Below are positions 5,031 through 23,900 of a DNA stretch of 46,654 nt, piece by piece (positions within the stretch are counted from its first letter, which is position 1; each line of letters starts with the position of its first letter). A program made the position numbers and the translations under genes. The notes beneath the pieces were generated by a model. The model was not told where the DNA came from. It saw only the letters and a program-made list of their open reading frames with translations, and did not search any database. Source of the DNA: Myxococcales bacterium (lineage in GTDB: Bacteria > Myxococcota > Myxococcia > Myxococcales > Myxococcaceae). Where the stretch lies: NCBI GenBank assembly GCA_038206395.1, contig JBBRAX010000061.1:1-46654 (forward strand), written 5' to 3'.

Positions 5031-5066
5031 TGAAGCGAGTCCGATCCGTTTGACGCGCTTCCGGGG

Positions 5067-5163
5067 ATCCCGAGAGAAGTCCCGCTGCCGTTCATCCCGA
5101 GAGAAGTCCCGCTGCCGTTCATCCCGAGAGAAGTCCCGCTGCCGTTCATCCCGAGAGAAGTCG
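5067..5163. repeat. 27-bp direct tandem repeat, about 3.6 copies (unit ATCCCGAGAGAAGTCCCGCTGCCGTTC)
   Basis: Three perfect copies at 5067-5093, 5094-5120 and 5121-5147, then a 16-bp partial copy at 5148-5163 that diverges. The repeat is open in all three frames on both strands; ORF-track peptides show DFSRDERQR x4, SREKSRCRS x4 and SLGMNGSGT x4. It lies in the spacer between the macroglobulin stop (5265) and the proposed pbpC start (5030). Confidence 0.9.
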
Positions 5164-5237
5164 AGGGATGATCTTCCTCCGCGCCCGGCACCTGAAGCCG
5201 TGCCACCGAGGCGGCCCATCCCTCGACTTCTCTCGGG
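5150..5237. repeat. 20-bp perfect inverted repeat (CCCGAGAGAAGTCGAGGGAT / ATCCCTCGACTTCTCTCGGG) with a 48-nt spacer; the left arm continues the tandem repeat
   Basis: 5150-5169 is the exact reverse complement of 5218-5237. The loop carries a further small inverted repeat (GGCAC...GTGCC near 5188-5204). The transcript of either strand could form a long hairpin. Confidence 0.85.
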
Positions 5238-5264
5238 ACGAACGGGCTGAAGCCGGGGCGCCAT

Positions 5265-8200
5265 CTACTTCTCGCGCGACCCGGTGACAGCGATGCGCAT
5301 GCCCTGGCCGCGGCCGCGAATGGACTCGCGGTACATCATCTCGGCGTACGGAGCGGGGTGCACGAAGCTGCCTTCTGAGCTGGCGCGCACGCGGAAGTGG
5401 AACCCGTACGTCCCCGCGGGAAGCTCGTTGAAGTAGTACCGAACCTCGTGGTCGAGGCGCTGGACGAAGGTCGGCGTCAGCGAGTCCGACCGCGAAGGCG
5501 TCGCGTCCGAGCCACTGGTCGCGAGGGCCGGGTTCAGCGGCTCGAGGCCCGCCGCGAAAGGCACCACGAAGGCGACATGGTTCCGCGTCTGGTCATTGAC
5601 GATCTGCGCGTGAAGCTCGAGCACATCGCCGATTCCCACCTTCAGCGTCTTCCCCGCCGCGTCGTCGTGGTTTGTCGGCGCCGAGTTGTCCGGGTGCAGC
5701 CACGTCAGCCCCCGGCTCACGACTAGGCCATCGTTCTTCGCCACCACGCGGTCGCCCGGCGCTTCCGGCAGGTAGCTGTACGCGACGCGGGCGCCCACCG
5801 GCGCTCCGCTGACCGTCACCAGCTGCTGCGTCGCCTGGTTGAGGAACCGCTTCGCCGCCTTGCCCTTGTCATCGAGGATCACGTTCGGCGTCCCCGGAAT
5901 TTCGACAGTGATTCGCGGCGTCTCGACGCGGGCCTTCTCGAAGTAGAGCCCCAGCGCCACGATGCCGCGGCGGTTGTCGTGCGTCGTCCCGAAGCCCCAC
6001 CGCGCGCTGCCCTTCGCAATCAAGCCGTCGCGCAGCAGCGCCAGCCTTTCGTCCTTCGGATCCATCGCCAGCAGCGCTTCCATCACCGCGGCCAGCGAGG
6101 ACGTGCTCGAGCCCAGGTAGTACCCGTTCCACGCGCTGCGATCTCCGCGGATCGAGTCGAACACCTTCTTGCCCTTCACCTGCTTGAACACCACCGCGTC
6201 CCACAGCTCGCTCTTCATCGCGGTGAGGTTCGAGGCGAACACGTTCGAGCGTTCGCCCATCGCGGCCGCGAGGTCGGCGAGGCTGGTCGGGTCGAGCTCC
6301 TTCCGGCGCTGGAAGAGCTCGATCATGTAGTGCTCGTCCAGCGCGTTGGCCTGAGCGAGCGCTCGAATTGCCGCCGCCTGCTGGTTCCACCGGTACTGCG
6401 CGTAGAAGCCGTTGAAGTCGCTGCGCAGCACCCGCTTCAGCGCCTCCATCGCGCGCGTCCGCACCTTCTCGTCCACCGGCAGCCCCAGCTTCTTCGCCGA
6501 CGTCATGAACTCGACGCCCTGCGCGGTGAGCGCCACGTCCCCTTTGCTGCCCGGCCAGTACGCGAAGAAGCCACCGTCGTCCTGGTTCTGCGACAGCTCT
6601 TCCAGCAGCCGCTTTACGTTCGAGTTGAGCATCGGCGTGAAGCGCGTCTCGAGCTCCAGCTGCTTCAGCATCTTGCCCAGCACCAGATCCGGAGCCACCT
6701 GGCTCATGCGCTGCTCCAGACACCCGTGCGGGTACTCAGACAGGTACTCGAGCCCGCTGGCCAGCTCCAACACGCCGGGCAGGCTCGTGACGACGAAGCT
6801 CTGCGTGATGGTTCCCGGCCGCGCCGGCTCGGGGAAGGGCTTCATCTGCGTCTTCCCGGGCTGCAGCGTCTCGATCCACGAGAACTTCTCGACGGTGCGA
6901 TCGGGCAACAGCGGCAGCTTCACCTCGAACGCATCGCCCGCCTTGTCCGACTGCCGCGTCACGTCCATTCGCACGGTGATCGACGTCGCGGCGATCGTCG
7001 GCACCGCCTTCACCGTCACTGGCGTCAGCACCGACTGCGCCTTGGCTGCCTTCAGGTCGATCTTCGTCGACGCGATCGGCGTGCCCTCGACCGCGCCCGT
7101 GACCTTGATGTCGATCGACGCCGGCCCTTCGGCCCCTTCGACCAGCCGCGCGACCCCGCCCGGCCAGAAGCGGTCTCCGACGCGGACGAAGCGCGGCAGC
7201 TGCGGCTGCACCAGCACCGGCAACCGAACCTTCAGCGTCGTCTGCTTGAACCCGAACCGCTGCGCGCCCGCCACCGCGACGACGCGCACCTTGAAGTTGG
7301 TGAGGTCGTCCGAGAGCGTCACTGGAATCACCACCTTCCCCGACGGAGGCACCGTCACCGTCGCCGCGTAGAAGGGCACCGTCTTGAAGTTCTTGCGAAC
7401 GAGGCGCTTGCCCTCGCCGTTCTCGTCGTCGCTGCCGTCACCGCCTGGGTCCTCTTCGAGCTCGGTGACGCGGCCGACCACCAGGTTGCGCGTGTCGCGA
7501 ATCGAGGTGCCGCGGCTGTTGCGGCGAATGAGCTCGCTCAACGGATCCAGCGTCGCCTCGCGCGCCAGTGACAGCACCGCTTCGTCGACCAGCCAGAAAG
7601 TGACTTCGCCGCCCACCGGGCGCTTCTGGTCGTCGGTGAGCAGAATCGTGAAGTCCTGCTTCGTGCCCGGCTTCGCCACCTCGGCGTGAAGCACCTCGAG
7701 CTTGACCAGGTTCTTCACCGGCTCGACCTCGAGATCCACGCTCGCCGCCGACGACGCTGGCTTGTAGCGCGCGTCGTCCGTCTTTCCCTCGCCCAGCCGG
7801 CCGCGCATCAGCACCACATGCACGGGGACGTTCGGCACGAACTTGTCGGTCACACGCACGTCGATGACCGCCTTGCCGCCGCTGACGTTGTGCCAGGTGT
7901 ACGTGTTGCCCGTCGGCTCTTCGACGATGACCAGCGCGCGGGCCGACGTGTACGGGCTCTGCACCAGCAGGTGCGCGGTGTCGCCCGGTGCGTACGTCTT
8001 CTTGTCCGGCTTCAGCTCGAAGACGCCTTCTTTCGATTTGTTCCACGACAGAGGCGTCTGCCCTCCGATGTAGAGGTCGGCCTGCATCGTCTGCACGCGG
8101 CCCAGCTTGTCGCGGCTGAAGAGCTCGACCACGTAGACGCCCGCTTCCTTCACGTCGAACGACAGAGGCAGCGGCTTGTCACCCGAGGTGACGATCTTCT

Positions 8201-11006: not shown

Positions 11007-14000
11007 TTGGCGACTCCGATGCGATTGAAGAGATCTCTGAGGTACTCGTCGGGCACGTCGGCCTTCGCGCCGGCGAGGCCCACGAGAACGGGCTTGAAGC
11101 GAAGCGCCGCGTTGCCGGACTTCGGCGGCTGGCGCACGGTGAGCAAGTAGCTGCCTTTGTCGAGCGACAGCAGCTGCTGGCACCCTTCGCCGAGCAGCTG
11201 GTACCCGTCGTTGTAGACGGCGCAGTCCAGCGACTCGCTGCGCGCCTGAATGCCGAGGCCGACCTTCCCCTTGCTGGCGGTCTGGAACCGGTAGACGCGC
11301 ACCTCTGCCGGGGAAATCCAGTCTTCCGCGCCGACCCCTTCTTTGAGCGCCGCGACGGGCTCAGAGGTCCACCGCAAGAGCCCAGGCCCGGTCTGACCTG
11401 CGAAGGGCCGCACCACGAGCCGGTAGGTGCCGGGCGACAACAGCCGCACCAGCTCACAGCCCGCGTCGAGCCCGTCGACGGCGAGCAGATCGTTTCCCTT
11501 GAACAACGCGCACACGCCCGACTCGGCCGTCACGCGCACCACCGCGTCCTTCTCGACCACGATCGCGCGATCCATCTTCGTGGTGCCAATCGGCACTGCG
11601 ACCGCGGGAAGCAGCGCAGCTGCTGGCGTCGCCGCGGGCTCGACCCCCAACCGTCCCTGCCGATCGCGGCCGGTGGGAAAGACGGCGGCGCGCATCGCTC
11701 CGGGGCGGTGCTCGAGAATCAGCTCGGCCGACGCACCCGCCGGAATCGTGGCGCGGCAGCCAGTGCTTCTCACGCCGTCCGACAGCGCGAGCAGGCAGCG
11801 GTCGACGTTGCCCTCGACCAGCACGGTGCGCTCGGCCGAACCGGTGGGGATCTTCAGCCGCATCGTGCCGGGCACCCGCGGCGCGTCTTCGTACAGGCCC
11901 GTCAGCGTCGAGCCCTTCTCGGCAGAATCGAGCAGCACGGTCGTCACGTCCGCCGCCGGCTCGGCCGAGGTGATCGCGACCCGCCCGCCCTTGCCCGTCA
12001 GCACGCACCGCGCGAGCACGCTGCCGCTGGGCGCGCAGAAGTCCACCGCGCCGCCCTTGTCGTCGAGCAGCACCGCCCACGCATCGACCGGCAGCGTGAG
12101 CTCGAGCCGCGCGCGCGCACCGGGCGGCAGCGCGAAGACGCCCGCCTCGTCGACCCAGTTCAACCGGCGGCGGCCTGGCACCAACGCCTCGGCCTTCGAC
12201 GGCAACTTCAGCGCTCGGTACTCGAGCTTCGCCGTCACGGGAGTCTCGGGGTTGACCGGCGTCCAGGCGCGCATCACCGCCGTCGAGGTCACGCCCGTCG
12301 CTGCGAAGCACGTGCTGTCGCGCCCTTCACGAACGTTGCCCGGCCCATCGAAGCCACACGACGGCGACGTGCGCTCGCCGTGCGGCACCTGCCCGGTGAG
12401 CAGGAAGAGCGCCGTCGGCCCTTCGAACGCTTGAAGGTACGGCAGCCGCGACAAGCCTGCCTGGCTCGACTCGAGCTTCGACGAGAGCTCGAGGTTGACC
12501 GGATCCAGCGACACCTTCTGGTCGTCCTTGCCGAACGCCGCGAACACCGCCGGCCCCGCTTCCAGCGACACCTCGGGCCCACACGCGCGCAGCAGGCCGC
12601 GCTGATTCCCGGCGATGCAGAAGACGAAGGGCGAAGTCTTGAATCTGCCGGCGCTCTGCAAATTCTTCGAGCCGGCCGTCGCGCCATCGAGCGTGCTGCC
12701 GGTGAAGGGCTCGATCGGCCGCGACTTGTAGCCGACCGTCACCTGCGCACTGCCGTCGGTGGTCCACACCCGCACCCGGAACTTCTCGGTCATTGGGCGC
12801 ACCAGCAGGCCGCAGCTCGTGACGCGGCTCTGGCGATGCACGACCTGGCCCTGGCCGTCTTCCAGCGCGCAGGAAATCGGGGTCTTGTTGCTCTTGAAGG
12901 TCAGCTCGGCCACCGAGTCCTTCTCGGCTACGGGAATCGCGAAGGTCTGAACGGACGCCGCGAGCTTGAGCGCCGCAGCGTCGGTGACCAGGCCCTTGTC
13001 TTCCACCGCCGCGAGGGCGACCGACAGCTTCGTCTCGCCGCGCTGCTGGGTCTCGCTCTCGAGCACCAGCGTGTAGTTGCCCTTCACCACCGGCTCGGCG
13101 AGCGCGCAGTTCCAGTCGGCGCCGTTGTCGCTTCCTTCGAACACCAGCGTGCCCTTCTCGTCGAACAGCCGGCAGCGCACGTCGGCCTCGCCTTCGGTGC
13201 GCAGGCGCAGCGTGCCGTCACGGGGGACTTTCAGCGGCAGCGTGGTGGGCGTCGGCAGCGTGCGCGTCATCCCCGGCACCAGGGTGTCGCTGCCGAGGTG
13301 CAGCCGGTAGTCGACCCCCACGTTGCCGCGGCTGTGCTCGGCGACAATCTTGTACTGGCCCGGCGGCAGCGTGACCTTCACGCCCGACGGCGTCGTCGGC
13401 GGTCTGACTGCCTGCACAGCGGCGGCGCCCGCCGTCGTCCGTTCTTCTTCCTGCTCGCCTTCTTCTCCGCCGTCCTCGTCGTTCTCTTCGCGAGGCGGTT
13501 CTTCTTCGCGGTAGCCCTCTTCCTCGTCGCTGTCCTCGTTCGACGACTCGGCAATGGCTCGCGGGGGAATCACCTCGACCGCGCGCGGCGCCTTGTCCGT
13601 CTCGAGCAGGAAGATGCGGCCCTGCATTCCGCCCGTCAGCACCACGTCCAGCGTCAGCTCGCCCTCGAGCTTGAAGGTGAACTCGTCTTTTCCGTCGGGC
13701 CCAAGCTTCGCCGCGTACCAGGTGTGGAAATCGATTCCGTGCGGCTTGTTGCCCTTCAGCACCAGCGCCTCTTTCACCTTCTCGAGCCGCGTGCGGCGCA
13801 TCGACTCGACGGTCAGCGGCAGCTGCGTCCACAGGTAGGTGCCCGCGGGCAGGAAGCGGTTGCCGACGCACGCGGAAGGCACGGTCTCGATTGGCCAACC
13901 CTGCGCGTCATCGAGGCGGCACAGCAGCGATACGCCCTGGCCGGTGGTGCCCAGCGCGAAGTCCGCGTCGGCCTTCACGTTCAGCTTCTGCTGCACCAGC

Positions 14001-16252
14001 ACGCCGGGGTCGACGCGAAAGTACGCCTCACCATCGGTCGCGACGCTGGAAAATTCGCGAGGGCTGCTGCGCGTCATCACGACTCCGGCGCGCCCCTTCG
14101 AGCTGCCGGTGGTGGTGACGGTGACCATGTAGCGGCCGGGGCGCAAGTAGCCCGAGACGAGGCAGTTGCGGCCGCGGCCTCCCGAGGTGTCGCTGGCGAC
14201 CGCAGGGACCACGGGCGTGCGCATCCGGCACTGCGTCGTCAGCAGCCCGACGGTGGTGATGTTGTAGAGGCCCGCAGTGTCGACATCGAAGACCATCGAG
14301 TGCGACTGATTCCGTTCGAAGTCGAAGAACGCCGGAGCGTCCACCGGCACTCGCGGCAACGGCCTCGACGCCGGATTCCAGCCGGCCAGCGCCGGCACGG
14401 GCGCAGGCACCGGCAGCGTGCGCATCAACGTGATCGCCGCCACGCCATCGGTCGGGTTGGTCAGCGTCAGCACCTCGCCCTTCGCCGACGCCGGCACCGC
14501 GCAGCTACCGTCCTTCGAGTCTTGCAGCGCCGCGCCGTAGCCACACTTGAACGCAGCGCCCGCGGCCGAGCGGATGATCGGCACCAGCCCTGGGCCCAGC
14601 GGCAGCTTCACGGTGCGCCGCGCATCGAGGGTGAGGTGCAGGGGGGCAGCCAGCAGCAGAGGAAAGGGCTCGCTGACGAGCCCACGGGCGGTGATCGCTC
14701 CGACGCGGCTGAGCACGAGGCGGTACCGGCCCCCGTCGATGGGCGCGGTGAGCAGACAGCCGGCCTTCGGCGCGGTGGGCTTCAGCGCGCGCTGGTTGTC
14801 CTCGCGCACCACCAGCCGTTCGATTCCCGAGAGGCCGTTGTAGATCGACACCTGGTACGCGCCGGCCGTCAGCACCAGCGACTCGTTGCACAGCGCGTCT
14901 TTCGTGTCGGTCAGCTGCTTCAGGGTGCCGTTGTTCTCCTGCCGCGACACGTTGCAGCGGGTCTTGCGGTCGCCCTTCGTCTGAATGCGGTAGCGCTCGG
15001 ACTTCTTCACCTCGAACCAGACCGCCGCGCTGCTGCCGTCGTATTTGAACTGGGCGTCGATCATCTGGCCGTCTTCGATGGTGACGACGTCGCGCGCCAC
15101 CACCTCGGGCGTGTCGTCTGTGCGCAGGCGTTCGACCTGGCAGCCCAGCGGAGCGGCGTCGGTGTCGGCCGGCAGATCGTGCACGCCCAGCAGCGCGTCC
15201 CCATTCCACCCCTCGAAGAGAATCTGGGTCTGCATCCCGCCGTACCAGCCGCCGCGCCACGGCGTGCCTTCCTGGCCGTGGTTCGCCCACTCGATGGTGC
15301 CGCGCGTGTTCGGAGCGCCCCGTACCACCAGCAGGTGCTTCAGACTGGAAGTGGCGAACGCCGAGCACTGAGGCACCAGCTGCTTCGCTTCGATGTCGCA
15401 GGTGCGGCCGCCGCTGAGGCTGTTGTCGTTGTTGAAGTCGGCCAGCGCGAGGGTCGTCGTCGCCGCCAGTGTTCCATCGAGCGACAGCAGCGCCGCCGTC
15501 GACGCCGCAGGAATCTGCCAGGCCGCGAAGCCCGACGCGGGAAGCACGAAGGACAGCATGCGTTCGGAAGGGCCTAAGCGGTGGCCGAGCTCGATCGTCA
15601 GCGCGTCGCTGACCCCCGAGCCCGCCCACGGACGTTCGGCGGTGCCGTAGACGGTGACCAGGTAGTCGCCCGCTTCGAGCCGCGTGTTCAGGTTCCACTC
15701 GTGAATGCTGCGGCCCGGCTCGGGCGTGGCCAACGACTGCTCGAAGGGCACCTGCTCGAGCCACTCACCGTTTCTCCACACGGTGACCACGCCGGCGGTG
15801 CGGCCGAAGATGCGAAGGTTTGGAACCTCGGGCTTGTCCAAAGACAGCCAGAAGCTCGCTTGCTCGCCCGAGCGCAGCGTCTGTTCTTGCGGCCCCTTGT
15901 TCCGCTCGAGCTTCAGCGGCTTCGCGTTGAGTTCAGTGAACGCCTTCGCGGTGACGTCGACCTTGCCCTTGCCGCGCTTCGGCGACTGCAGGCGCAGCTT
16001 GTAGCTGCCGATGTCGAGCAGCAGGTCGGTGTCGCAGCTCGACTTTCCGGAGACGCCCGAGGTGGTGAAGGGGCCGCGCACTTTGTCGACGACGGTGCAC
16101 GAGGTGCCGCTGGGCGACTTCGCGGTGACGCGCACCATCGCGGGCGCGTCGAGGGTGACGACGGACTCCTGTTTCCCGGTCGCAGGGACAAGGGCCGGCG
16201 AGACGTTCACTGCACTCATCAGCAAAGCGATCGTCGGAATCAGAGAGGTCAT
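11003..16252 (-). CDS. Giant secreted Cys-rich repeat protein of unknown function (1749 aa), translationally coupled to the alpha-2-macroglobulin gene
   Basis: Continuous 1749-aa ORF with high GC3. N-terminal signal peptide MTSLIPTIALLMSAVNVSPALVPA. About 10 recurrences of a [AGP]G-x-Y-x-[LV]-x-[LV] motif (e.g. AGDYLVTVYG, GGRYRLVLSR, PGRYMVTVTT, AGTYLWTQLP, KGNYTLVLES, PGTYRLVVRP, KGSYLLTVRQ), suggesting tandem beta-sandwich modules (PPC-like). An acidic stretch SSNEDSDEEEGYREEEPPREENDEDGGEEGEQEEE is encoded at 13441-13552. No CxEQ thioester motif and no catalytic motif that I recognise. Its TGA stop at 11003-11005 overlaps the macroglobulin GTG at 11004-11006 (GTGA). Confidence 0.7.
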   Translation of the reverse strand: MTSLIPTIALLMSAVNVSPALVPATGKQESVVTLDAPAMVRVTAKSPSGTSCTVVDKVRGPFTTSGVSGKSSCDTDLLLDIGSYKLRLQSPKRGKGKVDVTAKAFTELNAKPLKLERNKGPQEQTLRSGEQASFWLSLDKPEVPNLRIFGRTAGVVTVWRNGEWLEQVPFEQSLATPEPGRSIHEWNLNTRLEAGDYLVTVYGTAERPWAGSGVSDALTIELGHRLGPSERMLSFVLPASGFAAWQIPAASTAALLSLDGTLAATTTLALADFNNDNSLSGGRTCDIEAKQLVPQCSAFATSSLKHLLVVRGAPNTRGTIEWANHGQEGTPWRGGWYGGMQTQILFEGWNGDALLGVHDLPADTDAAPLGCQVERLRTDDTPEVVARDVVTIEDGQMIDAQFKYDGSSAAVWFEVKKSERYRIQTKGDRKTRCNVSRQENNGTLKQLTDTKDALCNESLVLTAGAYQVSIYNGLSGIERLVVREDNQRALKPTAPKAGCLLTAPIDGGRYRLVLSRVGAITARGLVSEPFPLLLAAPLHLTLDARRTVKLPLGPGLVPIIRSAAGAAFKCGYGAALQDSKDGSCAVPASAKGEVLTLTNPTDGVAAITLMRTLPVPAPVPALAGWNPASRPLPRVPVDAPAFFDFERNQSHSMVFDVDTAGLYNITTVGLLTTQCRMRTPVVPAVASDTSGGRGRNCLVSGYLRPGRYMVTVTTTGSSKGRAGVVMTRSSPREFSSVATDGEAYFRVDPGVLVQQKLNVKADADFALGTTGQGVSLLCRLDDAQGWPIETVPSACVGNRFLPAGTYLWTQLPLTVESMRRTRLEKVKEALVLKGNKPHGIDFHTWYAAKLGPDGKDEFTFKLEGELTLDVVLTGGMQGRIFLLETDKAPRAVEVIPPRAIAESSNEDSDEEEGYREEEPPREENDEDGGEEGEQEEERTTAGAAAVQAVRPPTTPSGVKVTLPPGQYKIVAEHSRGNVGVDYRLHLGSDTLVPGMTRTLPTPTTLPLKVPRDGTLRLRTEGEADVRCRLFDEKGTLVFEGSDNGADWNCALAEPVVKGNYTLVLESETQQRGETKLSVALAAVEDKGLVTDAAALKLAASVQTFAIPVAEKDSVAELTFKSNKTPISCALEDGQGQVVHRQSRVTSCGLLVRPMTEKFRVRVWTTDGSAQVTVGYKSRPIEPFTGSTLDGATAGSKNLQSAGRFKTSPFVFCIAGNQRGLLRACGPEVSLEAGPAVFAAFGKDDQKVSLDPVNLELSSKLESSQAGLSRLPYLQAFEGPTALFLLTGQVPHGERTSPSCGFDGPGNVREGRDSTCFAATGVTSTAVMRAWTPVNPETPVTAKLEYRALKLPSKAEALVPGRRRLNWVDEAGVFALPPGARARLELTLPVDAWAVLLDDKGGAVDFCAPSGSVLARCVLTGKGGRVAITSAEPAADVTTVLLDSAEKGSTLTGLYEDAPRVPGTMRLKIPTGSAERTVLVEGNVDRCLLALSDGVRSTGCRATIPAGASAELILEHRPGAMRAAVFPTGRDRQGRLGVEPAATPAAALLPAVAVPIGTTKMDRAIVVEKDAVVRVTAESGVCALFKGNDLLAVDGLDAGCELVRLLSPGTYRLVVRPFAGQTGPGLLRWTSEPVAALKEGVGAEDWISPAEVRVYRFQTASKGKVGLGIQARSESLDCAVYNDGYQLLGEGCQQLLSLDKGSYLLTVRQPPKSGNAALRFKPVLVGLAGAKADVPDEYLRDLFNRIGVAK

Positions 16253-16440: not shown

Positions 16441-17355
16441 ATGAAGAACGCACTGCTGGTGGCTGCACTGATGCTGACGGGTTGTGGGGTTTCGCAGACG
16501 GAAGAGACCGGGCCGGACGCGCTCGACACCGAAGGAAACGAGCTGTCGGCGAGCTCGCGGTCGTACGTCACGTTTCAGCGCGACTTCCGCAAGTGCGCTT
16601 CGCCGATGTGCGGCGGCTTCTTCGTGACGGACGTGAACCGGGTGAACCCGACCCCGAAGTACGTCACGGCGCTCGACTTCAAGGCCTCGGGCCTCGACCA
16701 GAAGGCGATCGACGAAGTGCTCGGCGCCGAGCTGCAGAACGTGGTGCTGCGCGGGAAGCTGGGCGCGCCCATCACCCAGGGCAACACGCTGCGCCCGTTC
16801 ATCGTCAGCGACGCCTTTCGCGGTATGCCCGGCGTGACCGCGGTCGCCGGCCAGCCGTACTTCAAGGTCGAGAGCATCAACGTCAACTGCATCAAGGCCC
16901 CGTGCCCGACGATGAAGGCGACGAAGCTGAACGCCGGTGGCAGCACGATGATCGACGGCCTCAGCGTGGCTGACGCGTCGCTGACCCGCGTGGATCATCA
17001 GTGGCTCGGTAACCGCGTCGCCGAGCACGGCGCGCTTCTCACCGCGAAGGTCATCAACGGCCAGCTGGTCTCTGGCACGTACGAGAAGATCCTCTCGGGA
17101 AGCCAGGTGTTCGTGAAGCTGCCCGAGGTCGCCGGCCCGTGCCCGTTGGTCAAGATGCCGCCGTGCCCGAACGGCAAGGTCCGCACGTACGAGCGCAACG
17201 AAGACCGCTGCGTGCTGCCGAGCTTCACCTGCGTCACCGGCGGCGCGTGCGCCCAGTTCGTCCCCGTGTGCGACCCAGGGTATGAGCTGCAGTCGTGGAC
17301 GGGCGGCAACTTCGCCTGCACCGTCTACGCGTGCGACCCGCAGTTTTCGCTGTAA
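16441..17355 (+). CDS. Lipoprotein of unknown function with Cys-rich C-terminal region
   Basis: AGGAG at 16421-16425 lies upstream of the ATG at 16441. Lipobox MKNALLVAALMLTG|C. C-terminal third is Cys-rich (CPLVKMPPCPNGK...CVTGGACAQFVPVCDPGYELQSW...CTVYACDP). Codon bias looks coding. Confidence 0.75.
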   Translation: MKNALLVAALMLTGCGVSQTEETGPDALDTEGNELSASSRSYVTFQRDFRKCASPMCGGFFVTDVNRVNPTPKYVTALDFKASGLDQKAIDEVLGAELQNVVLRGKLGAPITQGNTLRPFIVSDAFRGMPGVTAVAGQPYFKVESINVNCIKAPCPTMKATKLNAGGSTMIDGLSVADASLTRVDHQWLGNRVAEHGALLTAKVINGQLVSGTYEKILSGSQVFVKLPEVAGPCPLVKMPPCPNGKVRTYERNEDRCVLPSFTCVTGGACAQFVPVCDPGYELQSWTGGNFACTVYACDPQFSL

Positions 17356-17447
17356 GCGGCTACCCGCCGTCGAACGAGCAGTGACCGGCGACGCAGGAGC
17401 TGCGGCCGACGCAGGCTTCGCTGGCGCTGATTGTCATCGCGCCGATC

Positions 17448-17627
17448 GTGCTCAGCCTCTTTGCGTTCCACGCGCTCTACGCCCAATCGGGCCTCGGCGT
17501 GGGAATCGTGCTCGTCGGCCTCACCGCGTCCCTCGCCTGGACCCACCGCGCTGCCTATGCCCCGCTGTTTGCCGCGGCGGCGCTGGTGCCTGGGTCCGCT
17601 CCGTCGCGGCGCGCGGTGACGGAGTAG
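17448..17627 (+). CDS. Possible small two-helix membrane protein (start codon uncertain)
   Basis: A frame is open from 17385 to the TAG at 17625-17627 with very high GC3. It encodes ...LIVIAPIVLSLFAFHALYAQSGLGVGIVLVGLTASLAWTHRAAYAPLFAAAALVPGSAPSRRAVTE. There is no in-frame ATG; the first GTG is at 17448. This is why the ORF track did not list it. Confidence 0.25.
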   Translation: MLSLFAFHALYAQSGLGVGIVLVGLTASLAWTHRAAYAPLFAAAALVPGSAPSRRAVTE

Positions 17628-17650
17628 GCGCTGGAGCCCACCCGAAAACC

Positions 17651-17674
17651 TCTTCGATCGAATTCGATCGAAGA
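17651..17674. promoter_or_regulatory. Perfect 24-bp palindrome TCTTCGATCGAATTCGATCGAAGA (two tandem copies of the 10-bp palindrome TTCGATCGAA); candidate operator, copy 1
   Basis: Exactly self-complementary. Embedded in a locally lower-GC stretch. Flanked by CCCACCCG at 17636-17643 and GGTGGGTT at 17693-17700, an imperfect outer inverted repeat. Confidence 0.5.
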
Positions 17675-17767
17675 CCGAAATTGCTTTAACGGCGGTGGGT
17701 TGGCCAGAACCTGCGGAGGCTTCCTCGCCGCAGTGCGTTAGGGCTTCGATGGCAGCCGGCGCACTGC

Positions 17768-17787
17768 GTCAAAGTTTTCGATCGAAT
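17768..17787. promoter_or_regulatory. Second copy of the perfect 20-bp palindrome TTCGATCGAATTCGATCGAA; candidate operator, copy 2
   Basis: Identical 20-mer 115 bp from copy 1 (centre to centre). About 225 bp upstream of the NfeD/flotillin/ATPase gene block. A 9-bp inverted repeat CGCAGTGCG/CGCACTGCG lies just upstream (about 17738-17755). Confidence 0.5.
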
Positions 17788-18012
17788 TCGATCGAATCGC
17801 TTTCGGGTCTCGCGGCAGCGACGGGAGTCGTCGCGGCGAGGTGGTCGCCCGCCCGGCGGTGGTGAGCCGATCAAGCCAGCCAATCGGAATCGGCCAGCGT
17901 CCTCGGCGCGGGGCTCAGGCGGATCGCTGCCAGGAAGCCGAGACGGGGCGGCGCGATCGCCGTGAAGCGCTTCACTCGATTCACTGGCTGCCTTGTAGAC
18001 TCGCGCGCACGC

Positions 18013-18777
18013 ATGGACCAATTCCTCCGCACCATCGTGGCCTTTCCGGTCATGCCGATGACGGTCTTGCTGGGCGTGGTGCTCTGCTACTGGCTCTTCG
18101 TCATCCTCGGCGCAGTCGGCTTCGAAGGCGGCCACGACGGCATCACCGCAGGAGCCAAGGCTGCTGGCGAGGGCCTCACGGGTGGAATGAAGGCGGCGGG
18201 GGAAGCGGCCACCGGGTCGGCGAAGGCAGTCGGAGCGAAGGACGCCGGCGGCGAGGCCGACGGCAGCATCCTCGACATGCTCGGCCTCGGCAGCATCCCG
18301 ATCACCATCACCGGCAGCGCGGTCGCCTTCTTCGGCTGGCTCCTCACCATCTTCGGCACGAACCTGCTGGGCGGCGGAGCGCTGATTCAATCGGGCGTGC
18401 TGCTCGGCTCCCTGGTACTCGCGCTTCTGTGCAGCGCGGTCGTGCTTCGACCACTGCGGCGCGTCTTCGACGGGCACAGCGCGATCAGCCGCAAAGAGCT
18501 GCGCGGCAAGATCTGCGTGATCTCGTCGGGCTCGGTCGACAAGGCGTTCGGTACAGCCACGATGGAAGACGGTGGGGCCGGCCTGATGATCCACGTCACG
18601 TGTGCGCGCGCGAACCCGCTGAAGAAGGGCGATCGCGCGCTGATCATCGACTTCGATCCAGCCAAAGACTCTTACGAGATCGAGCCCATCGACTGGCTCG
18701 AGCCGCGTGAAATCGAGGCCTTGAAGGATCCAGCGATGGCGGCCGGCGTGCTCGATGCGCGCCTTCGCCAGCGTTGA
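18013..18777 (+). CDS. NfeD-like / YqiJ-like (DUF1449-type) inner-membrane protein, partner of flotillin
   Basis: The ORF is open from 17962; the ATG at 18013 begins MDQFLRTIVAFPVMPMTVLLGVVLCYWLFVILGAV (TM helix). Then a Gly/Ala-rich loop, further TM helices (ITITGSAVAFFGWLLTIFGTNLLGGGALIQSGVLLGSLVLALL), and a C-terminal soluble beta-rich domain (GKICVISSGSVDKAFGTATMEDGGAGLMIHVTCARANPLKKGDRALIIDFD) resembling the NfeD OB-fold. Directly upstream of a flotillin gene, as for E. coli yqiJ-yqiK. Confidence 0.6.
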   Translation: MDQFLRTIVAFPVMPMTVLLGVVLCYWLFVILGAVGFEGGHDGITAGAKAAGEGLTGGMKAAGEAATGSAKAVGAKDAGGEADGSILDMLGLGSIPITITGSAVAFFGWLLTIFGTNLLGGGALIQSGVLLGSLVLALLCSAVVLRPLRRVFDGHSAISRKELRGKICVISSGSVDKAFGTATMEDGGAGLMIHVTCARANPLKKGDRALIIDFDPAKDSYEIEPIDWLEPREIEALKDPAMAAGVLDARLRQR

Positions 18778-18867: not shown

Positions 18868-20958
18868 ATGGATCAGAACATCATCACTTTGCTGATGGCC
18901 ATCGGCATCGGGTTCGTTGTCGTGCTCGGCATCGCGGTCATCGTCGCCCGCTTCTACCGCCAAGTCTCGCAGGGCCAGGTGTTGATCATCAACACCATGA
19001 AGAGCGAGCCGCGCGTCAGCTTCACCGGCTCCATCGTTCTGCCGATCATCAACCGGCACGAGATCATGGACATCTCGCTGAAGACGATCGAGATCGCGCG
19101 CCACGGCCGCGAAGGCTTGATCTGCGCCGACAACATCCGCGCCGACATCAAGGTCAGCTTCTTCGTCCGCGTGAACAAGACGGTCGAAGACGTGCTGAAG
19201 GTCGCGCAGTCAGTCGGCTGCGCGCGCGCGAGCGACGAAGGCACGCTGCAGGAACTCTTCGAGGCCAAGTTCTCTGAAGGCCTCAAGTCCGTCGGTAAGC
19301 GCTTCAACTTCGAAGACCTGTACCAGGAGCGCGAGAAGTTCAAAGACCAGATCGTGCAGGTCATCGGCAAGGACCTGAACGGCTACTTCCTCGAAGACGC
19401 GGCGATCGACCAGCTCGAGCAGACGCCGATCGAGCTGCTCAACAAAGAGAACATTCTCGACGCGCAGGGCATCCGGAAGATCACCGAGCTCACCACCGTG
19501 CAGAACGTGCTCACGAACGAGTTCCGGCAAACCGAGCGCAAGCAGATCACCAAGCAGAACGTCGAGGCCGACGAAGCCGTCTTCGCGCTCGAGCGCCAGC
19601 GCGCCGAAGCCGCCGCCAAGCAGAAGCGCGAGATCGAGACCATTCAGGCCCGCGAGTTCGCCGAGACCTCGCGCGTGCAGCAGGAAGAGCACACCAAGTC
19701 CGAGAACGCGCGCATCAAGGCCGAGGAAGAGGTGCAGATCAACGAGCAGAACAAGCTGCGCCAGATCGAGGTCGCCGGGAAGAACCGCGAGCGCGTCGTC
19801 GGCATCGAGGCCGAGCGCGTGCAGAAAGACCGCAACCTCGAGGCGATTCTTCGAGAGCGCGAAGTCGAGCTGATGCGCATCGGGAAGGAAAAGGCGCTGG
19901 AAGGAGAGCGCAAGGCCATCGCTGACATCGTGAGCACGCGCATCGCCGTCGAAAAGAAGGTCGCCGTCGAGGAAGAGCTGATCAAGGACCTGCGCGTCAC
20001 CGCCGATGCGCAGCGCAAGAAGTCCGCCGCGATCATCACCGCCGAAGGCGTCGCGCAGGAAGCCGTCGTCGCCAAGGTGAAGAACGCCGAGGCCGATGAA
20101 GAGGCGGCCCGTCACGAAGCGAAGACGCGCATCATCCAGGCCGACGCCGCGCTCGAGGCCGCCGACAAGGACGCGCGCGCCAAGATTCGCCTCGCCGAAG
20201 GCATTCAGGCTGAGGAAGCCGCCTCCGGTCTCGCTGACGCCCGCGTGAAGGAAGCGCAGGCCGTCGCGGCCGAGAAGCAGGGCATGGCGCAGGTTCGCGT
20301 GCGGGAAGCCGACGCGGCGGCGATCGAGAAGCGCGGCGCCGCGGAAGCCGCGGTCGAAGAGGCGAAGGGCATGGCGCTGGTTCGCGTGCACGCTGCCGAA
20401 GCCGACGTGCTTCGCACCAAGGGGCTCGCCGAAGCGGCCGGCATCGAAGCGCACGTCAAGGCCGAAGCGATGGGCATCCAGGAAAAGCTGCTCGCCGAGG
20501 CGCGCGGCATCAAGGAGAAGGCCGAGGCGATGAAGCTGCTGCAGGGCGCGACCAAGGACCACGAAGAGTTCCGCCTGCGCCTCGACAAGGATCGCGCGAT
20601 TGAAATGGAAGAGCTCAACGTCCGCCGCGATGTCGCGGGTCACCAGGCAAAGGTGATGGGCGAGGCCTTCAAGACCGCCAAGATCAACATCGTCGGGGGC
20701 GACGGTCAGTTCTTCGACCAGTTCATGAAGGCGGTCACCCTGGGCCAGCAGGTCGACGGAGCGATTCAGCAGTCCGAGTCCCTTCAGACCTTCCTCAAGC
20801 AGTACCTCGACGGTGAGGCCAACCTCCCGGCCGACCTGAAAGAGATCCTCAGCCGCCCGGGCCTCACGCAGGACGCCCAGAACATGGCGGTCGCCTCGCT
20901 GCTCACCCGGCTCGCGAAGTCGCCGGGCGAGATCATCGAAGGCAAGAAGAAGGGCTAG
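18868..20958 (+). CDS. Flotillin family (SPFH/band-7) protein, YqiK-like
   Basis: 696 aa. A GGGGG Shine-Dalgarno lies 7 nt upstream. N-terminal TM (IITLLMAIGIGFVVVLGIAVIVARFY). SPFH core (QVLIINTMKSEPRVSFTGSIVLPIINRHEIMDISLKTIEI...ADNIRADIKVSFFVRV). Long Ala/Glu-rich coiled-coil (EAxA-like) region. C-terminal flotillin tail. Confidence 0.85.
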   Translation: MDQNIITLLMAIGIGFVVVLGIAVIVARFYRQVSQGQVLIINTMKSEPRVSFTGSIVLPIINRHEIMDISLKTIEIARHGREGLICADNIRADIKVSFFVRVNKTVEDVLKVAQSVGCARASDEGTLQELFEAKFSEGLKSVGKRFNFEDLYQEREKFKDQIVQVIGKDLNGYFLEDAAIDQLEQTPIELLNKENILDAQGIRKITELTTVQNVLTNEFRQTERKQITKQNVEADEAVFALERQRAEAAAKQKREIETIQAREFAETSRVQQEEHTKSENARIKAEEEVQINEQNKLRQIEVAGKNRERVVGIEAERVQKDRNLEAILREREVELMRIGKEKALEGERKAIADIVSTRIAVEKKVAVEEELIKDLRVTADAQRKKSAAIITAEGVAQEAVVAKVKNAEADEEAARHEAKTRIIQADAALEAADKDARAKIRLAEGIQAEEAASGLADARVKEAQAVAAEKQGMAQVRVREADAAAIEKRGAAEAAVEEAKGMALVRVHAAEADVLRTKGLAEAAGIEAHVKAEAMGIQEKLLAEARGIKEKAEAMKLLQGATKDHEEFRLRLDKDRAIEMEELNVRRDVAGHQAKVMGEAFKTAKINIVGGDGQFFDQFMKAVTLGQQVDGAIQQSESLQTFLKQYLDGEANLPADLKEILSRPGLTQDAQNMAVASLLTRLAKSPGEIIEGKKKG

Positions 20959-20970
20959 CGACCAAGCCCG

Positions 20971-23900
20971 ATGGCCGAGCAGCCTGAACAGAAAGAAGCT
21001 GCCCTCGAAGGAGGCAGCTACGAGGTCATTCGCGCGCGCCTGCTCAAGCAGGCCGGTGAGCTCGGCGCGCGCGTCGAGGCGCTCAACGCACGCCGCAGGC
21101 AGGAGTTCGGCGGCCAGGAGCTCACCGTCATCGGAAACGATCGCGTCCGCACCGAGCACAACTGCGTGCCGCGCAACATCGTGCCCGTCGGCCGCCACCT
21201 GCTGCTCGGCTTCAACGTCTTCATGGGCCTCAAGCAGGAACGCGCGCTGAGCGACGTGTTCTCACTTCACAAGTTCGAGAAGACGGGTGAGGGCGCCTTC
21301 GACTTCGGGCCGGTGCCTGCCACCGAGGCAGGCGGCTTCCTCGTCGATCGCCGCTTGCAGAAGGACTTCGACGAGCTGACGCGGTACTACAAGGACGCCA
21401 AGCTCGATCGCCTCACCCGCACCGACGCGCGGATGTTGGCGGTGTTTCGCACCGGGCAGACCGCGCGCGACATCAAGGTGCTGCGCTTCTCGGTCGACGG
21501 CCAGGGGCTGCCGACCTACCTCGACAACCGCGGCGAGGCAGACCTGCCGCAGGCGAAGACGCACGACTTCGAGTGGACCCGCTGCAGCCGCGAGGCGCAC
21601 GTCACCGGCAAGCACCCGCACATCAACGTGCTCGATGAGATCTTCGTCGAGACCGTGAAGGGCGACCTCACCATCAAGGTCGAGAACAACACCGAGACAG
21701 GGCAAGGCGTCTACTCCGAGCCTGTCGATGACCCTGACCAGGCGCTCGACGACGCCGAGTTCTATTTTGCGAAGGTCGGCGTCCTCATTCTGTTGAAGGT
21801 GCTGCCGTTTCGAGAACAGAAGTACCGCTACCTCGTCTTCAACTCGCGCACCCAGTCGGTCGCGCGGCTCGACGCAATCGGCGTCTCGTGCATCGGGCTT
21901 CCGGAAGACCAGGGCATCATCTTCCCCGGCGGCTACGTGCTGCAGACGGGCGAGGTGAAGACCTTCGAAGGTGACGTCACCAACCTCACCTTCAAGCGCG
22001 TGGTGCGCAGCCCGAATGGCGAAGACGTGCTCTACGTCTTCTACAGTCCGGTTGATGGGCGCTACGTGCTGTTGCCGTACAACCTCGTCCGCAAGGAAGT
22101 GCTGAACCCGATTCACTGCCACGGGTACGCGCTGTTTCCCGATGGGCAGATGGTCACCTTCCGCTCGGCCAGCAGCGAGCCGACGCGCGTCCACCCGATG
22201 CAGGTGTGGACGACGCCTTTCGTGTCGGCGGAGGTGGCGGCGGCGGCTCCGAAGAGCACCTCGTTTCTGGGCAAGGTGGGCAATGCCGAGCTCGTGCGTG
22301 GGGTGTCTGACGCCTTCACGCTCAAGCGCATGGCCGAGGCGCCGAGCCCGACGCGCCGCACTTTCGAAGACTTGTCGAAGGCGTGCGAGCGGCTCACCGA
22401 CGCGTACTACTGGCTGGGCAACGCCGAGATTGGGCTGCGCGAGGTGGTCGCCGAGCTTCAGCGCGCTTCCGAGCTGATCGTCGACGAGTTCGAGAAGGTG
22501 CAGGCGCTGCAGCGCACCGCGCGCGAGGCGATTGCCACCGCGGCGACCCAGCAGGACGAGCTCATCAAACGGCTCACGCCGGAAGACCTGCGATCCACCG
22601 ACGCGTTCATGGACGCGCTGTCGTCGCTGCGCAAGCAGCGCGGCCGGTTGATCACCCTCAAAGACCTGCGCTTCATCGACGCCGAGAAGCTGCAGACGCT
22701 CGAGCAGCAGATCGTCGCCGCCTTCGAGAACGTGAGCCTCGGCTGCGTCGCCTTTCTCGCGCAAGACTCCGCGCTGACGCCGGTGGTCGAGAACATCGAT
22801 CGCATCGGGGCGCAGGCGCCGCAGGTGACGCGGAACTCCGAGCTGCAGCCGATTGCGGCCGAGCTCGAGAAGGTGGGCGAAGGGCTCGACGTGCTGGGCG
22901 AAGTCGTCGGCGGGCTGAAGGTCGGCGATCCCACCGTTCGCGCCGGAATTCTCGAGCGCATCAGCGACGTGTTCGGCCGGCTCAACCGCGTGCGCGCCAT
23001 CATCCAGGGCCGCGCGAAGGACCTCGGAAGCAAGGAACGCAGGTCTGAGTTCGGCGCCCAGTTCAAGCTGCTCTCTTTGAGCATCGAGAGCGCCCTCTCG
23101 CTCACCGACACCCCCGACAAGGCCGACGAGCAGCTGGCCCGCCTGTCGACCCAGCTCGAAGAGCTCGAAGGCCGCTTCTCTGAGTTCGACGAGTTCACGG
23201 GCGAGGTCGGTAACAAGAGAGAAGAGCTCTTCGAGGCGTTCGGAGCGCGCAAGCAGGCGCTGGTCGACGAGAGGCAGCGGCGCGCCGCGAACATGTTCAC
23301 CGCGGCCGAACGGATCCTCGAGGGCGTGGGGCGTCGCGCGAAGGCGTTGAAAGACGACGACGCGCTGAACGCGTACTTCGCCGGCGACCCGATGATCGAC
23401 AAGCTGCGCGCGCTCTCGGCCCAGCTGCTCGAGCTCGGCGACAGCGTGAAGTCCGACGAGCTCGACTCGCGGCTGAAGACGGCCCGCCAGGATGCGCTGC
23501 GGTCGATGCGCGACCAGCAAGAGCTGTTCGAGGAAGGCACGAACGTCATCAAGCTCGGCACCCACCGCTTCAACGTCAACACCCAGCCGCTGGAGCTCAC
23601 CGTGCTGCCGAAAGACGGCGCCCTTCACGAGCACCTCACCGGCACCGACTTCTCGCAGCGCCTCGACGCGCCCGAGCTGCTCGCCGCGAAGGACCTGTGG
23701 GACCAGACGCTGCCTTCCGAGTCGCCCGACGTGTACCGGGCCGAGTTCCTCGCCGCGCAGGTGCTGTTTGCGGCAGAGGCCGGTGACCAGGGCCTCACGC
23801 TCGAGACGCTGCGCGAGGCGGCGCGCGAAAAGGATGCGCTGACGGTGGTTTGCCGGAAGTGGGCGGCCGATCGCTTCGACGAAGGCTACGAGCGCGGGCT

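What the first reader, a model, noticed from the sequence alone, without database searches (positions are those of the whole stretch)
17620..17800. Twin perfect palindromes TTCGATCGAATTCGATCGAA in a lower-GC island upstream of the NfeD/flotillin/ATPase block
Two exact copies of a 20-bp palindrome lie 115 bp apart, in the lowest-GC stretch of the window (17636-17700 and 17760-17800). Copy 1 extends to a perfect 24-mer (17651-17674). Each palindrome is itself a tandem duplication of the 10-bp palindrome TTCGATCGAA. The first copy is nested in an outer imperfect inverted repeat (CCCACCCG...CGGTGGGT). Perfect tandem-dimer palindromes of this length are the signature of an operator bound by a dimer-of-dimers repressor, or of a small mobile or structured element. 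A candidate small two-TM ORF (17385-17627) ends just upstream. The motifs contain GATC and TCGA methylation or restriction sites.
Basis: seen in the sequence. Interest (0 to 1): 0.6.

Follow-up and report, generated by a model that had tools for sequence, protein, structure and literature searches.

The report
Dispersed mosaic palindrome repeat, not operator
The twin 20-bp palindromes are real, but they are the core of one 200-bp copy of an undescribed repeat family scattered through intergenic DNA of this uncultured myxobacterium and a related species, so they are not a switch dedicated to the neighbouring flotillin operon.

Summary
TTCGATCGAATTCGATCGAA occurs exactly twice, at 17653-17672 and 17777-17796, against 0 expected by chance. 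The operator reading does not hold.

- **Dispersal.** The same 20-mer (PAL) lies at 22 distinct intergenic loci in metagenome contigs from the samples that carry this organism. It also lies on 19 contigs of a related Archangiaceae MAG.
- **Shared modules.** PAL is always embedded in the same accessory modules: a GACGCnnnGCGTC unit, a GGCGGGnGGTTGG arm and a CTCCAGC arm. They come in variable number and order, with 1-4 PALs at 41-133 bp spacing. Profiles built only from other loci recognise every arm of the window copy, which defines a 200-bp element at 17628-17827. It folds as one long hairpin.
- **Context.** Copies sit between convergent, divergent and tandem genes of unrelated function.
- **Orthologous operons.** Seven related yqiJ-flotillin-DUF3686 operons have 30-240 bp upstream gaps. 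The six whose DNA could be read contain no PAL.
- **Turnover.** One orthologous site is filled in this organism and empty in the MAG. Five other sites are filled in both.

Best reading: a lineage-specific REPIN/BIME/MITE-like mosaic repeat. Its perfectly conserved palindrome is probably the recognition site of an unidentified trans-acting protein. This is a new member of a known kind, of modest interest.

The parts
17628..17827 (.). Whole repeat element (about 200 bp): B' arm, PAL1, A arm, GACGC units, PAL2, B arm.
   Evidence: Profile HMMs built only from other loci hit 17653-17745, 17796-17719, 17672-17628 and 17777-17827, and nothing else in the window. A 47-nt inverted repeat joins the two ends. 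The stretch folds as one long hairpin: RNA -98.1 kcal/mol, z -4.0; DNA -54.1 kcal/mol, z -4.0.
17628..17652 (-). Outer arm of type B, read away from PAL1: GAGGTTTTCGGGTGGGCTCCAGCGC.
   Evidence: Model B scores E=1.4e-10 and 36.6 bits over 17672-17628, against about 22 bits for the palindrome alone. The same arm occurs in L066, L051, L034 and L065.
17653..17672 (.). PAL1, the exact 20-bp palindrome. The perfect 24-mer spans 17651-17674.
17673..17745 (+). A arm: 18 nt, then GGCGGTGGGTTGG (17691-17703), about 22 nt, then a GACGC-like unit TCGCCGCAGTGCG (17725-17737).
   Evidence: Model A scores E=2.1e-15 and 51.8 bits over 17653-17745. The GGCGGGnGGTTG motif sits 17-18 nt after PAL in 14 arms of the MAG and 11 arms in this organism.
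17729..17768 (.). Inner hairpin formed by the two GACGC-type units, CGCAGTGCG and CGCACTGCG: a 9-bp stem with a 22-nt loop.
   Evidence: inverted repeat I19; also present in the predicted folds.
17758..17776 (-). Inner arm of PAL2, read away from PAL2: AACTTT then GACGCAGTGCGCC.
   Evidence: Model I scores E=8.4e-15 and 50.4 bits over 17796-17719. The same arm occurs in 56 arms of other loci.
17777..17796 (.). PAL2, the exact 20-bp palindrome.
17797..17827 (+). Outer arm of type B: TCGCTTTCGGGTCTCGCGGCAGCGACGGGAG.
   Evidence: Model B scores E=3.3e-9 and 32.2 bits over 17777-17827. It pairs with the left B arm in the fold.
17448..17627 (+). Flanking small ORF (59 aa, hydrophobic). Its stop codon TAG (17625-17627) is immediately followed by the element, which starts at 17628. 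It is not part of the repeat.
   Evidence: GC3 is 0.88 over the open frame. The ORF is called in 4 of 6 metagenome annotations. No homology search was run.
17996..18001 (+). Putative -10 element TAGACT of the yqiJ operon, 200 bp downstream of PAL2. It is not part of the repeat.
   Evidence: A TAnnCT-like hexamer lies 11-14 nt before the ATG in 7 orthologous upstream regions. This is an inference with no transcript data.
18013..18777 (+). Downstream gene yqiJ (DUF1449 family), the first gene of the yqiJ / flotillin (18868-20958) / DUF3686-AAA (20971-26415) operon. It is not part of the repeat.
   Evidence: Names given by sources; Pfam hits; synteny.

Best explanation
**What it is.** The two palindromes are the conserved cores (PAL) of a single ~200-bp copy (17628-17827) of a lineage-specific, dispersed, mosaic intergenic repeat family.

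**What is shown.**
- The family is built from a few modules: the 20-bp PAL, GACGCnnnGCGTC units, a GGCGGGnGGTTGG arm (A) and a CTCCAGC arm (B). They are combined in variable number and order.
- The family occurs at tens of unrelated intergenic sites in this organism and in a related Archangiaceae species.
- Many sites are inherited vertically, and at least one site has been gained or lost since the two species split.
- PAL stays exact while the other modules diverge to about 50-70% identity.

**What is inferred.**
- PAL is the recognition, and possibly cleavage or recombination, site of a trans-acting protein encoded elsewhere. A transposase or recombinase of the kind that serves REPINs and MITEs is the most likely candidate. 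That protein spreads, rearranges or homogenises the elements.
- The inverted arms let the element extrude as a hairpin or cruciform.
- At this locus the element is a passenger inserted directly after the stop codon of a small ORF, about 200 bp upstream of the yqiJ-flotillin-DUF3686 promoter.
- Its most plausible local effect is as a strong hairpin that terminates or insulates read-through from the upstream genes. It does not act as an operator.

**Sub-probabilities.** Dispersed repeat rather than dedicated operator: about 0.95. Spread by a PAL-specific trans-acting enzyme: about 0.5.
For: **Dispersal**
- Exact PAL is on 19 contigs of one Archangiaceae MAG and in only 5 unrelated singleton hits among 185,579 species genomes.
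- There are 44 metagenome loci. After removing duplicates, 22 distinct GC-rich loci come from the same samples that hold the window's contig.

**Common descent**
- The shared modules sit at fixed offsets from PAL.
- GACGC units are 11-13 times denser within 300 bp of PALs than elsewhere.
- Profiles built without the window recognise all four of its arms, with E from 1e-9 to 1e-15.
- L051, L066 and L065 have the same whole architecture as the window copy.

**PAL as the functional core**
- PALs are invariant, while inner regions are 49-67% identical.
- After discounting one ascertained PAL per locus, 11 of 17 and 6 of 11 further PAL-like sites are still exact.

**Not regulatory for this operon**
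- Contexts are 11 convergent, 8 divergent and 8 tandem.
- Neighbouring genes are unrelated in function.
- Seven orthologous operons have upstream gaps too short for the element, and the six with readable DNA lack it.
- The conserved -10-like element is next to the ATG.

**Turnover**
- Five orthologous sites are filled in both species, with the modules rearranged.
- The ArgG site holds an element in this organism and only a 17-nt spacer in the MAG, with flanks 87-89% identical.

**Structure**
- The element folds as a long hairpin with z = -4.
Against: - No transposase or RAYT was found among about 30 flanking ORFs, and no autonomous parent element was seen.
- No convincing target-site duplication was found. 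There is only GACGGAGT (17618-17625) against GACGGGAGT (17820-17828), and the B-arm profile runs through the right-hand one.
- Copy number is tens of loci, not the hundreds typical of REPs.
- Copies are old and diverged, so current mobility is unproven. The single filled/empty site could be a deletion rather than an insertion.
- The assignment of the 22 loci to the same genome as the window rests on shared samples, GC content and the shared repeat family, not on a closed genome.
- A host DNA-binding protein that uses PAL for a cellular function is not excluded.
Confidence: 0.85

Rival explanations
1. PAL is the high-affinity site of a host DNA-binding protein, such as a global regulator, a nucleoid-associated protein or a chromosome-organising protein. 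The repeats persist because the host uses them, as IHF and gyrase use BIMEs. This does not exclude a repeat-family origin.
For: - The 20-mer is perfectly conserved against 50-67% identity in the flanks.
- Five sites are retained across two species.
- The tandem-dimer palindrome geometry suits two dimers.
- Arrays with a 44-bp period occur in L042 and L052.
Against: - Independently evolved binding sites would not share 70-nt accessory modules.
- Sites occur between convergent genes.
- PALs decay or are lost at some orthologous sites.
- No candidate protein has been identified.
Confidence: 0.25
2. The element acts mainly at the RNA level. When transcribed, the long hairpin serves as a terminator, a 3'-end stabiliser or a processing site, as REP, BOX and Correia elements do. 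That function is what selection maintains.
For: - The predicted RNA hairpin is very stable: -98 kcal/mol, z -4.
- Many copies lie 5-130 bp after a stop codon: 26 bp in the window, 5 bp in L059 and L019, 32 bp in L061, 41 bp in L042.
Against: - There is no U-tract and no terminator-like call.
- Eight of 27 copies lie between divergent genes.
- RNA function would select for pairing rather than for an exact 20-mer sequence.
- The bias toward convergent gene pairs is not significant; my chi-square on the counts gives p of about 0.08.
- There is no Rfam match.
Confidence: 0.2
3. The twin palindromes are the operator of a local dimer-of-dimers repressor that controls the downstream yqiJ-flotillin-ATPase operon.
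For: - There are two identical perfect palindromes upstream of an operon on the same strand.
- The 124-bp spacing could in principle allow DNA looping.
Against: - The same motif with the same flanking modules lies at 40 or more unrelated loci in two species.
- No regulator gene is adjacent.
- None of the six orthologous operons with readable DNA has the motif, and upstream gaps in all seven are only 30-240 bp.
- The putative promoter is 200 bp downstream of PAL2.
- None of the other PAL loci examined neighbours a flotillin or yqiJ gene.
Confidence: 0.03
4. The palindromes are an assembly or cloning artefact, for example a chimeric join or adapter-like sequence containing EcoRI and PvuI sites.
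For: The 20-mer is made of restriction-site palindromes: GAATTC, CGATCG and GATC.
Against: - The locus is 99.5-99.75% identical, element included, in six metagenome assemblies from JGI and ENA.
- The family has diverged copies and orthologous copies in a separate MAG.
Confidence: 0.01

Closest known systems
REPINs and REP clusters served by RAYT transposases (Bertels and Rainey 2011, PMC3116915 and PMC3337134)
   Same: - Short non-coding extragenic repeats.
- Two inverted units plus a spacer that fold as a hairpin in ssDNA or RNA.
- Doublets, clusters and tandem arrays all occur.
- Long persistence and mostly vertical inheritance, with occasional gain or loss.
   Different: - The core is a perfect 20-bp tandem-dimer palindrome, so a single unit is already self-complementary. 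REPs are imperfect palindromes of about 20-35 nt.
- There are tens of loci rather than hundreds.
- No RAYT gene was found next to any copy examined.
- REPIN-RAYT systems are, to my knowledge, not described in Myxococcota. The literature search found none.
BIMEs of Escherichia coli and BOX elements of Streptococcus pneumoniae (modular mosaic intergenic repeats; from my own knowledge)
   Same: A mosaic of a few short modules is combined in variable number and order. Here that is B-PAL-(GACGC unit-PAL)n-A/B with 1-4 PALs. Location is strictly intergenic, often just after stop codons, with strong predicted secondary structure.
   Different: The module sequences are unrelated. No protein partner is known here, unlike IHF, gyrase and Pol I for BIMEs. 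Copy number is lower.
MITEs such as Correia/NEMIS elements of Neisseria (from my own knowledge)
   Same: - Size about 100-270 bp.
- Imperfect terminal inverted repeats (47 nt at 74% in the window).
- Non-coding.
- A filled versus empty orthologous site exists.
   Different: - No clear target-site duplication.
- No parent IS with matching ends.
- The best conserved part is 25-65 nt inside the ends rather than at the termini.
- Internal module number varies.
Operators bound by two dimers, for example QacR on IR1
   Same: A long perfect palindrome that can be read as two adjacent dyads.
   Different: Operators are local to the regulated genes and do not carry shared 70-nt flanking modules. This motif is dispersed, occurs between convergent genes and is absent from orthologous operons.

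Membership tests
REPIN / REP-RAYT system | Extragenic location of all or nearly all copies. | tested here: met
   All 40 loci examined are intergenic by a GC3-based gene call, apart from a few ORF ends that run into an arm.
REPIN / REP-RAYT system | Two inverted units plus a spacer that form a hairpin. | tested here: met
   Inverted arms 17629-17675 and 17774-17820. The minimum-free-energy fold is a single long hairpin with z -4.
REPIN / REP-RAYT system | A RAYT (Y1 transposase) gene flanked by the repeats. | tested here: inconclusive
   About 30 ORFs flanking PAL loci were scanned against Pfam and none is a transposase. The whole genome could not be searched.
REPIN / REP-RAYT system | High copy number, typically a hundred or more per genome. 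| tested here: not met
   There are 22 distinct loci in this organism's samples and 19 contigs in the MAG carrying exact PALs. These are lower bounds, because only exact 20-mers were searched and both genomes are fragmentary.
BIME / BOX-type mosaic repeat | A small set of modules combined in variable order and number. | tested here: met
   Arms of types A, B and inner surround 1-4 PALs at 41-133 bp spacing.
BIME / BOX-type mosaic repeat | Sequence homology to the E. coli PU/REP modules or the pneumococcal boxA, boxB and boxC modules. | not tested
   No reference sequences for these modules were compared. There is no Rfam match. From my own knowledge the sequences are unrelated.
MITE | Terminal inverted repeats. 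| tested here: met
   47-nt arms at 74% complementarity. The best conserved part is internal (PAL), not terminal.
MITE | Target-site duplication flanking the element. | tested here: inconclusive
   Only GACGGAGT (17618-17625) against GACGGGAGT (17820-17828), read. No duplication is visible at the filled/empty ArgG site.
MITE | Filled and empty sites at orthologous positions. | tested here: met
   L035 holds an element of about 160 bp. The orthologous MAG site L084 has a 17-nt spacer, with flanks 87-89% identical. This is one case, and a deletion is not excluded.
MITE | An autonomous IS with the same ends. | tested here: inconclusive
   No PAL pair flanks a gene in any locus fetched. There are no hits in viral contigs, plasmids or phages. 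The whole genome was not searchable.
Local operator of a repressor | The site overlaps or adjoins the promoter of the regulated operon and is conserved with that operon. | tested here: not met
   The motif is absent from the six orthologous operons with readable DNA, and all seven have short upstream gaps. PAL2 lies 200 bp upstream of the conserved -10-like element.
Local operator of a repressor | Only the motif, not the flanking sequence, is shared between sites, and the sites lie upstream of functionally related genes. | tested here: not met
   Flanking modules are shared. Neighbouring genes are unrelated and 11 of 27 sites lie between convergent genes.
Intrinsic terminator | A GC-rich stem followed by a U-tract. 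| tested here: not met
   The terminator scan found none in 17200-18200, and no T-run follows either palindrome.

The most novel reading that the evidence does not exclude
PAL is the recognition and recombination site of a dedicated, still unidentified protein, in a long-lived, vertically inherited partnership new to Myxococcota. The partner could be a domesticated transposase or recombinase analogous to a RAYT, or a chromosome-organising factor. Breakage or exchange would occur at the palindrome's dyad.

This would explain four observations:
- The exact 20-mer is conserved among strongly diverged arms.
- Modules are reshuffled at PAL boundaries.
- A half-PAL is fused to an A arm in L047 where its ortholog L021 has a full PAL.
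- Strain differences are confined to the outer arms of one element (L051 against L069).
Probability: 0.25. Interest if true: 0.55.

Novelty: new member of a known kind. Interest (0 to 1): 0.3.

Why it matters
- **Annotation.** The palindromes should not be read as a regulatory site of the yqiJ-flotillin-DUF3686 operon.
- **Genome biology.** Dispersed mosaic repeats of the REP/BIME/REPIN kind are well studied in gamma-proteobacteria and little described in Myxococcota. A family whose core is a perfect 20-bp tandem-dimer palindrome gives a simple sequence handle for finding the protein that recognises it, and the shared and differing sites in two related species give a way to date gains and losses.
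- **Practical consequence.** Such repeats break or confuse metagenome assemblies. Many of the MAG contigs that carry PAL are short or end near it.

Tried and rejected
- **Rfam.** The whole window at gathering threshold and 17300-18100 at E up to 1 gave nothing credible; the best hit was nhaA-I at E 0.14.
- **Promoter and terminator scan.** Nothing was found in 17200-18200.
- **Literature.** Searches for the 10-mer and for REP, MITE, REPIN and RAYT in myxobacteria found no description of this motif.
- **Mobile-element collections.** Viral contigs, plasmids and phages gave no match, so there is no link to a known mobile element.
- **Transposase or RAYT next to copies.** Three Pfam batches covering about 30 ORFs, including ORFs in regions of weak coding signal, found none.
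- **Two PAL loci on one contig flanking a gene.** The fetched loci do not overlap, so adjacency could not be decided.
- **Target-site duplication.** Only a weak 8-9 nt candidate was found.
- **Orientation bias.** The counts of 11 convergent, 8 tandem and 8 divergent are not significantly different from 1:2:1 and rest on a crude gene caller.
- **Other copies or relics in the window.** None was found, either by motif or by profile.
- **Non-myxobacterial exact hits.** The cyanobacterial, Streptomyces and Flavobacteriaceae hits and several other metagenome contigs lack the accessory modules. They are near the number expected by chance for a 20-mer in 596 Gb, so I treated them as unrelated.

Full report
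**1. Observation**

The sequence is as described. TTCGATCGAATTCGATCGAA (PAL) occurs exactly at 17653-17672 and 17777-17796, with no other match in the 46.6-kb window even at 3 mismatches and none in 100 shuffles. Copy 1 is a perfect 24-mer (17651-17674), and each 20-mer is a tandem dimer of the 10-bp palindrome TTCGATCGAA.

Three details need correcting:
- The copies are 124 bp apart start to start, with a 104-bp gap, not 115.
- They are the lowest-GC spots only at the 41-65 nt scale.
- The small 'outer' inverted repeat around copy 1 is weak. The real larger symmetry is a 47-nt, 74% complementary inverted repeat (17629-17675 against 17774-17820) that embraces both palindromes.

**2. Surroundings**

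- Upstream on the + strand lie a DUF6748 gene (16441-17355) and a small hydrophobic ORF (17448-17627). The ORF has coding-like GC3, and its stop codon directly abuts the repeat.
- Downstream lie yqiJ/DUF1449 (18013-18777), a flotillin/Band_7 gene (18868-20958) and a 1814-aa DUF3686-AAA protein (20971-26415).
- The window is 99.65% identical to contigs in six metagenome assemblies. All contain the element, so it is not an artefact.

**3. The motif is dispersed**

A scan of one genome per species (185,579 species) found the exact 20-mer on 19 contigs of a single Archangiaceae MAG (JAYUXE01), often in pairs 67-155 bp apart. Elsewhere there were only five unrelated singleton hits, about what chance allows.

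A metagenome scan found 44 loci. After removing cross-assembly duplicates, 22 distinct loci of GC 0.65-0.68 come from the very samples that carry the window's contig, many on 40-220 kb contigs. They hold 1 to 4 PALs at spacings of 41-133 bp.

**4. It is a repeat family, not just a shared binding motif**

Reading outward from each PAL, the flanks fall into three recurrent arm types:
- **Inner arm:** GATTTT followed by GACGCnnnGCGTC.
- **A arm:** about 18 nt, then GGCGGGnGGTTGG, about 25 nt, then another GACGC unit.
- **B arm:** TGGnTTTGnGGGTnGGCTCCAGC...

GACGC units are 11-13 times denser within 300 bp of PALs than in the rest of about 300 kb of fetched sequence.

Profile HMMs built only from other loci recognise all four arms of the window copy. 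Scores are 32-52 bits, against about 22 bits for PAL alone, and they hit nothing else in the window. That defines the element as 17628-17827: B', PAL1, A arm, GACGC units, PAL2, B.

Three other loci (L051/L069, L066, L065) share this whole architecture. The element is predicted to fold as one long hairpin in which PAL1 pairs with PAL2 and B' with B. The RNA energy is -98 kcal/mol and the DNA energy -54 kcal/mol, both at z = -4.

**5. Context argues against regulation of a gene set**

- All copies are intergenic. With a crude GC3-based gene caller, 11 lie between convergent genes, 8 between divergent genes and 8 between tandem genes.
- Neighbouring genes are unrelated: HAD hydrolase, acyl-CoA dehydrogenase, methyltransferases, pirin, argininosuccinate synthase, SDR, a response regulator, M23 peptidase, PGA_cap, EcsC, YjbR, Sir2, OmpA and others. 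None is a flotillin, a yqiJ or a transposase.

**6. The downstream operon does not need the element**

Seven related yqiJ-flotillin(-DUF3686) operons, at 50-75% YqiJ identity, have upstream gaps of only 30-240 bp and different upstream neighbours. The six whose DNA could be read contain no PAL, no 10-mer and no GACGC unit. For the seventh (P0003) only the gene table was available.

All seven aligned upstream regions, the window among them, share a -10-like hexamer 11-14 nt before the ATG; the window's is TAGACT at 17996-18001. The probable promoter is therefore about 200 bp downstream of PAL2. This is an inference, since no transcript data exist.

**7. Evolutionary behaviour**

- The MAG and the window's organism are related species, with 80-92% nucleotide identity in flanking genes.
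- At five orthologous intergenic sites both carry the element, but with modules added, lost or degraded.
- At the ArgG site the window's organism has an element of about 160 bp where the MAG has a 17-nt spacer, with flanks 87-89% identical.
- The family is therefore old and mostly inherited vertically, but it turns over.
- PAL is far better conserved than its surroundings. It is invariant where inner regions are 49-67% identical. After discounting the one exact PAL per locus that the search required, 11 of 17 and 6 of 11 additional PAL-like sites are still exact.
- That points to PAL as the part under selection or homogenisation, most simply as a protein recognition site.

**8. Mechanism**

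Shown: this is one copy of a dispersed, modular, hairpin-forming intergenic repeat family, with conserved palindromic cores and evidence of gain or loss.

Inferred: a trans-acting protein recognises PAL and spreads or rearranges the elements, as RAYTs do for REPINs or transposases do for MITEs. Locally, the hairpin may stop read-through from the small ORF into the yqiJ operon.

Not found: a transposase, a parent element or a clear target-site duplication. Host use of PAL by a nucleoid or regulatory protein, and an RNA-level role, remain possible and are not exclusive. A dedicated operator is very unlikely.

**9. Comparison with known kinds**

- It works like REPINs and REP clusters (PMC3116915, PMC3337134), BIMEs, BOX elements and MITEs.
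- It meets the extragenic, hairpin, mosaic and filled/empty criteria.
- It fails the high-copy-number criterion.
- It is untested or inconclusive for an associated transposase and for target-site duplications.
- It differs in having a perfect 20-bp tandem-dimer palindrome as its core.
- No paper in the library describes this motif in myxobacteria.

**10. Verdict**

This is a new member of a known kind, of modest interest (0.3). It would be more interesting if a dedicated PAL-recognising enzyme or chromosome-organising protein were found.

Noticed in passing
L051:2247-2574 versus L069 (the same locus in two metagenome assemblies): The two strains are 99.57% identical over 6.27 kb, yet 28 of the 29 differences lie in the outer arms of one PAL element. 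22 fall in the 130 nt left of PAL1 and 6 fall 36-46 nt right of PAL2. PAL-inner-PAL is 100% identical. Several L069 variants match the paralogous copy L066. This suggests gene conversion between copies or a local mutation hotspot. An assembly chimera at a repeat is not excluded.
   Followed up: partly
L047:~3740-3880 versus L021:7676-7772 (orthologous sites in two species): Where L021 has a full PAL, L047 has a half-PAL (TTCGATCGAA) joined directly to an A-type arm. It looks as if exchange occurred at the centre of the palindrome.
   Followed up: no
L042:1920-2075 (the same locus as L052:5188-5294): There is a tandem array of four or five units of PAL plus GTCGCAGTGCGTCAC at a strict 44-bp period, directly after the stop codon of an SDR gene. 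The layout recalls centromere-like arrays such as sopC, which is my own recollection.
   Followed up: no
window 17953-18027, and L075, L076, L078, L079, L081, L082: The yqiJ-flotillin-DUF3686/AAA three-gene block is conserved across Myxococcota relatives. It carries a shared -10-like hexamer (TAGACT, TACACT or TAAGCT) only 11-14 nt before the ATG, which suggests a leaderless or very short-leader mRNA.
   Followed up: partly
window 17448-17627: A small hydrophobic ORF (59 aa, with coding-like GC3 of 0.88 over an 80-codon open frame) ends with a TAG directly abutting the repeat element at 17628. Several other copies also start within 5-40 nt of a stop codon, and in L065 the neighbouring ORF runs into the element. 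No homology search was run.
   Followed up: partly
L036, L043, L049, L060, L070, L071 (metagenome contigs, GC 0.42-0.48): An unrelated low-GC repeat also contains the exact 20-mer. It is rich in TTCGATCGAA, AATCGAA and TTCGATTCGA strings and is bounded by TAGGAGCCCTA-like ends. It recurs in several soil or plant-associated samples and looks like a different transposable element, possibly eukaryotic.
   Followed up: no
window 11003-16252 (- strand): A 1749-aa protein with no Pfam match sits between the alpha-2-macroglobulin/PBP1C pair (2712-11183) and the DUF6748 gene. It is conserved in all six metagenome copies.
   Followed up: no
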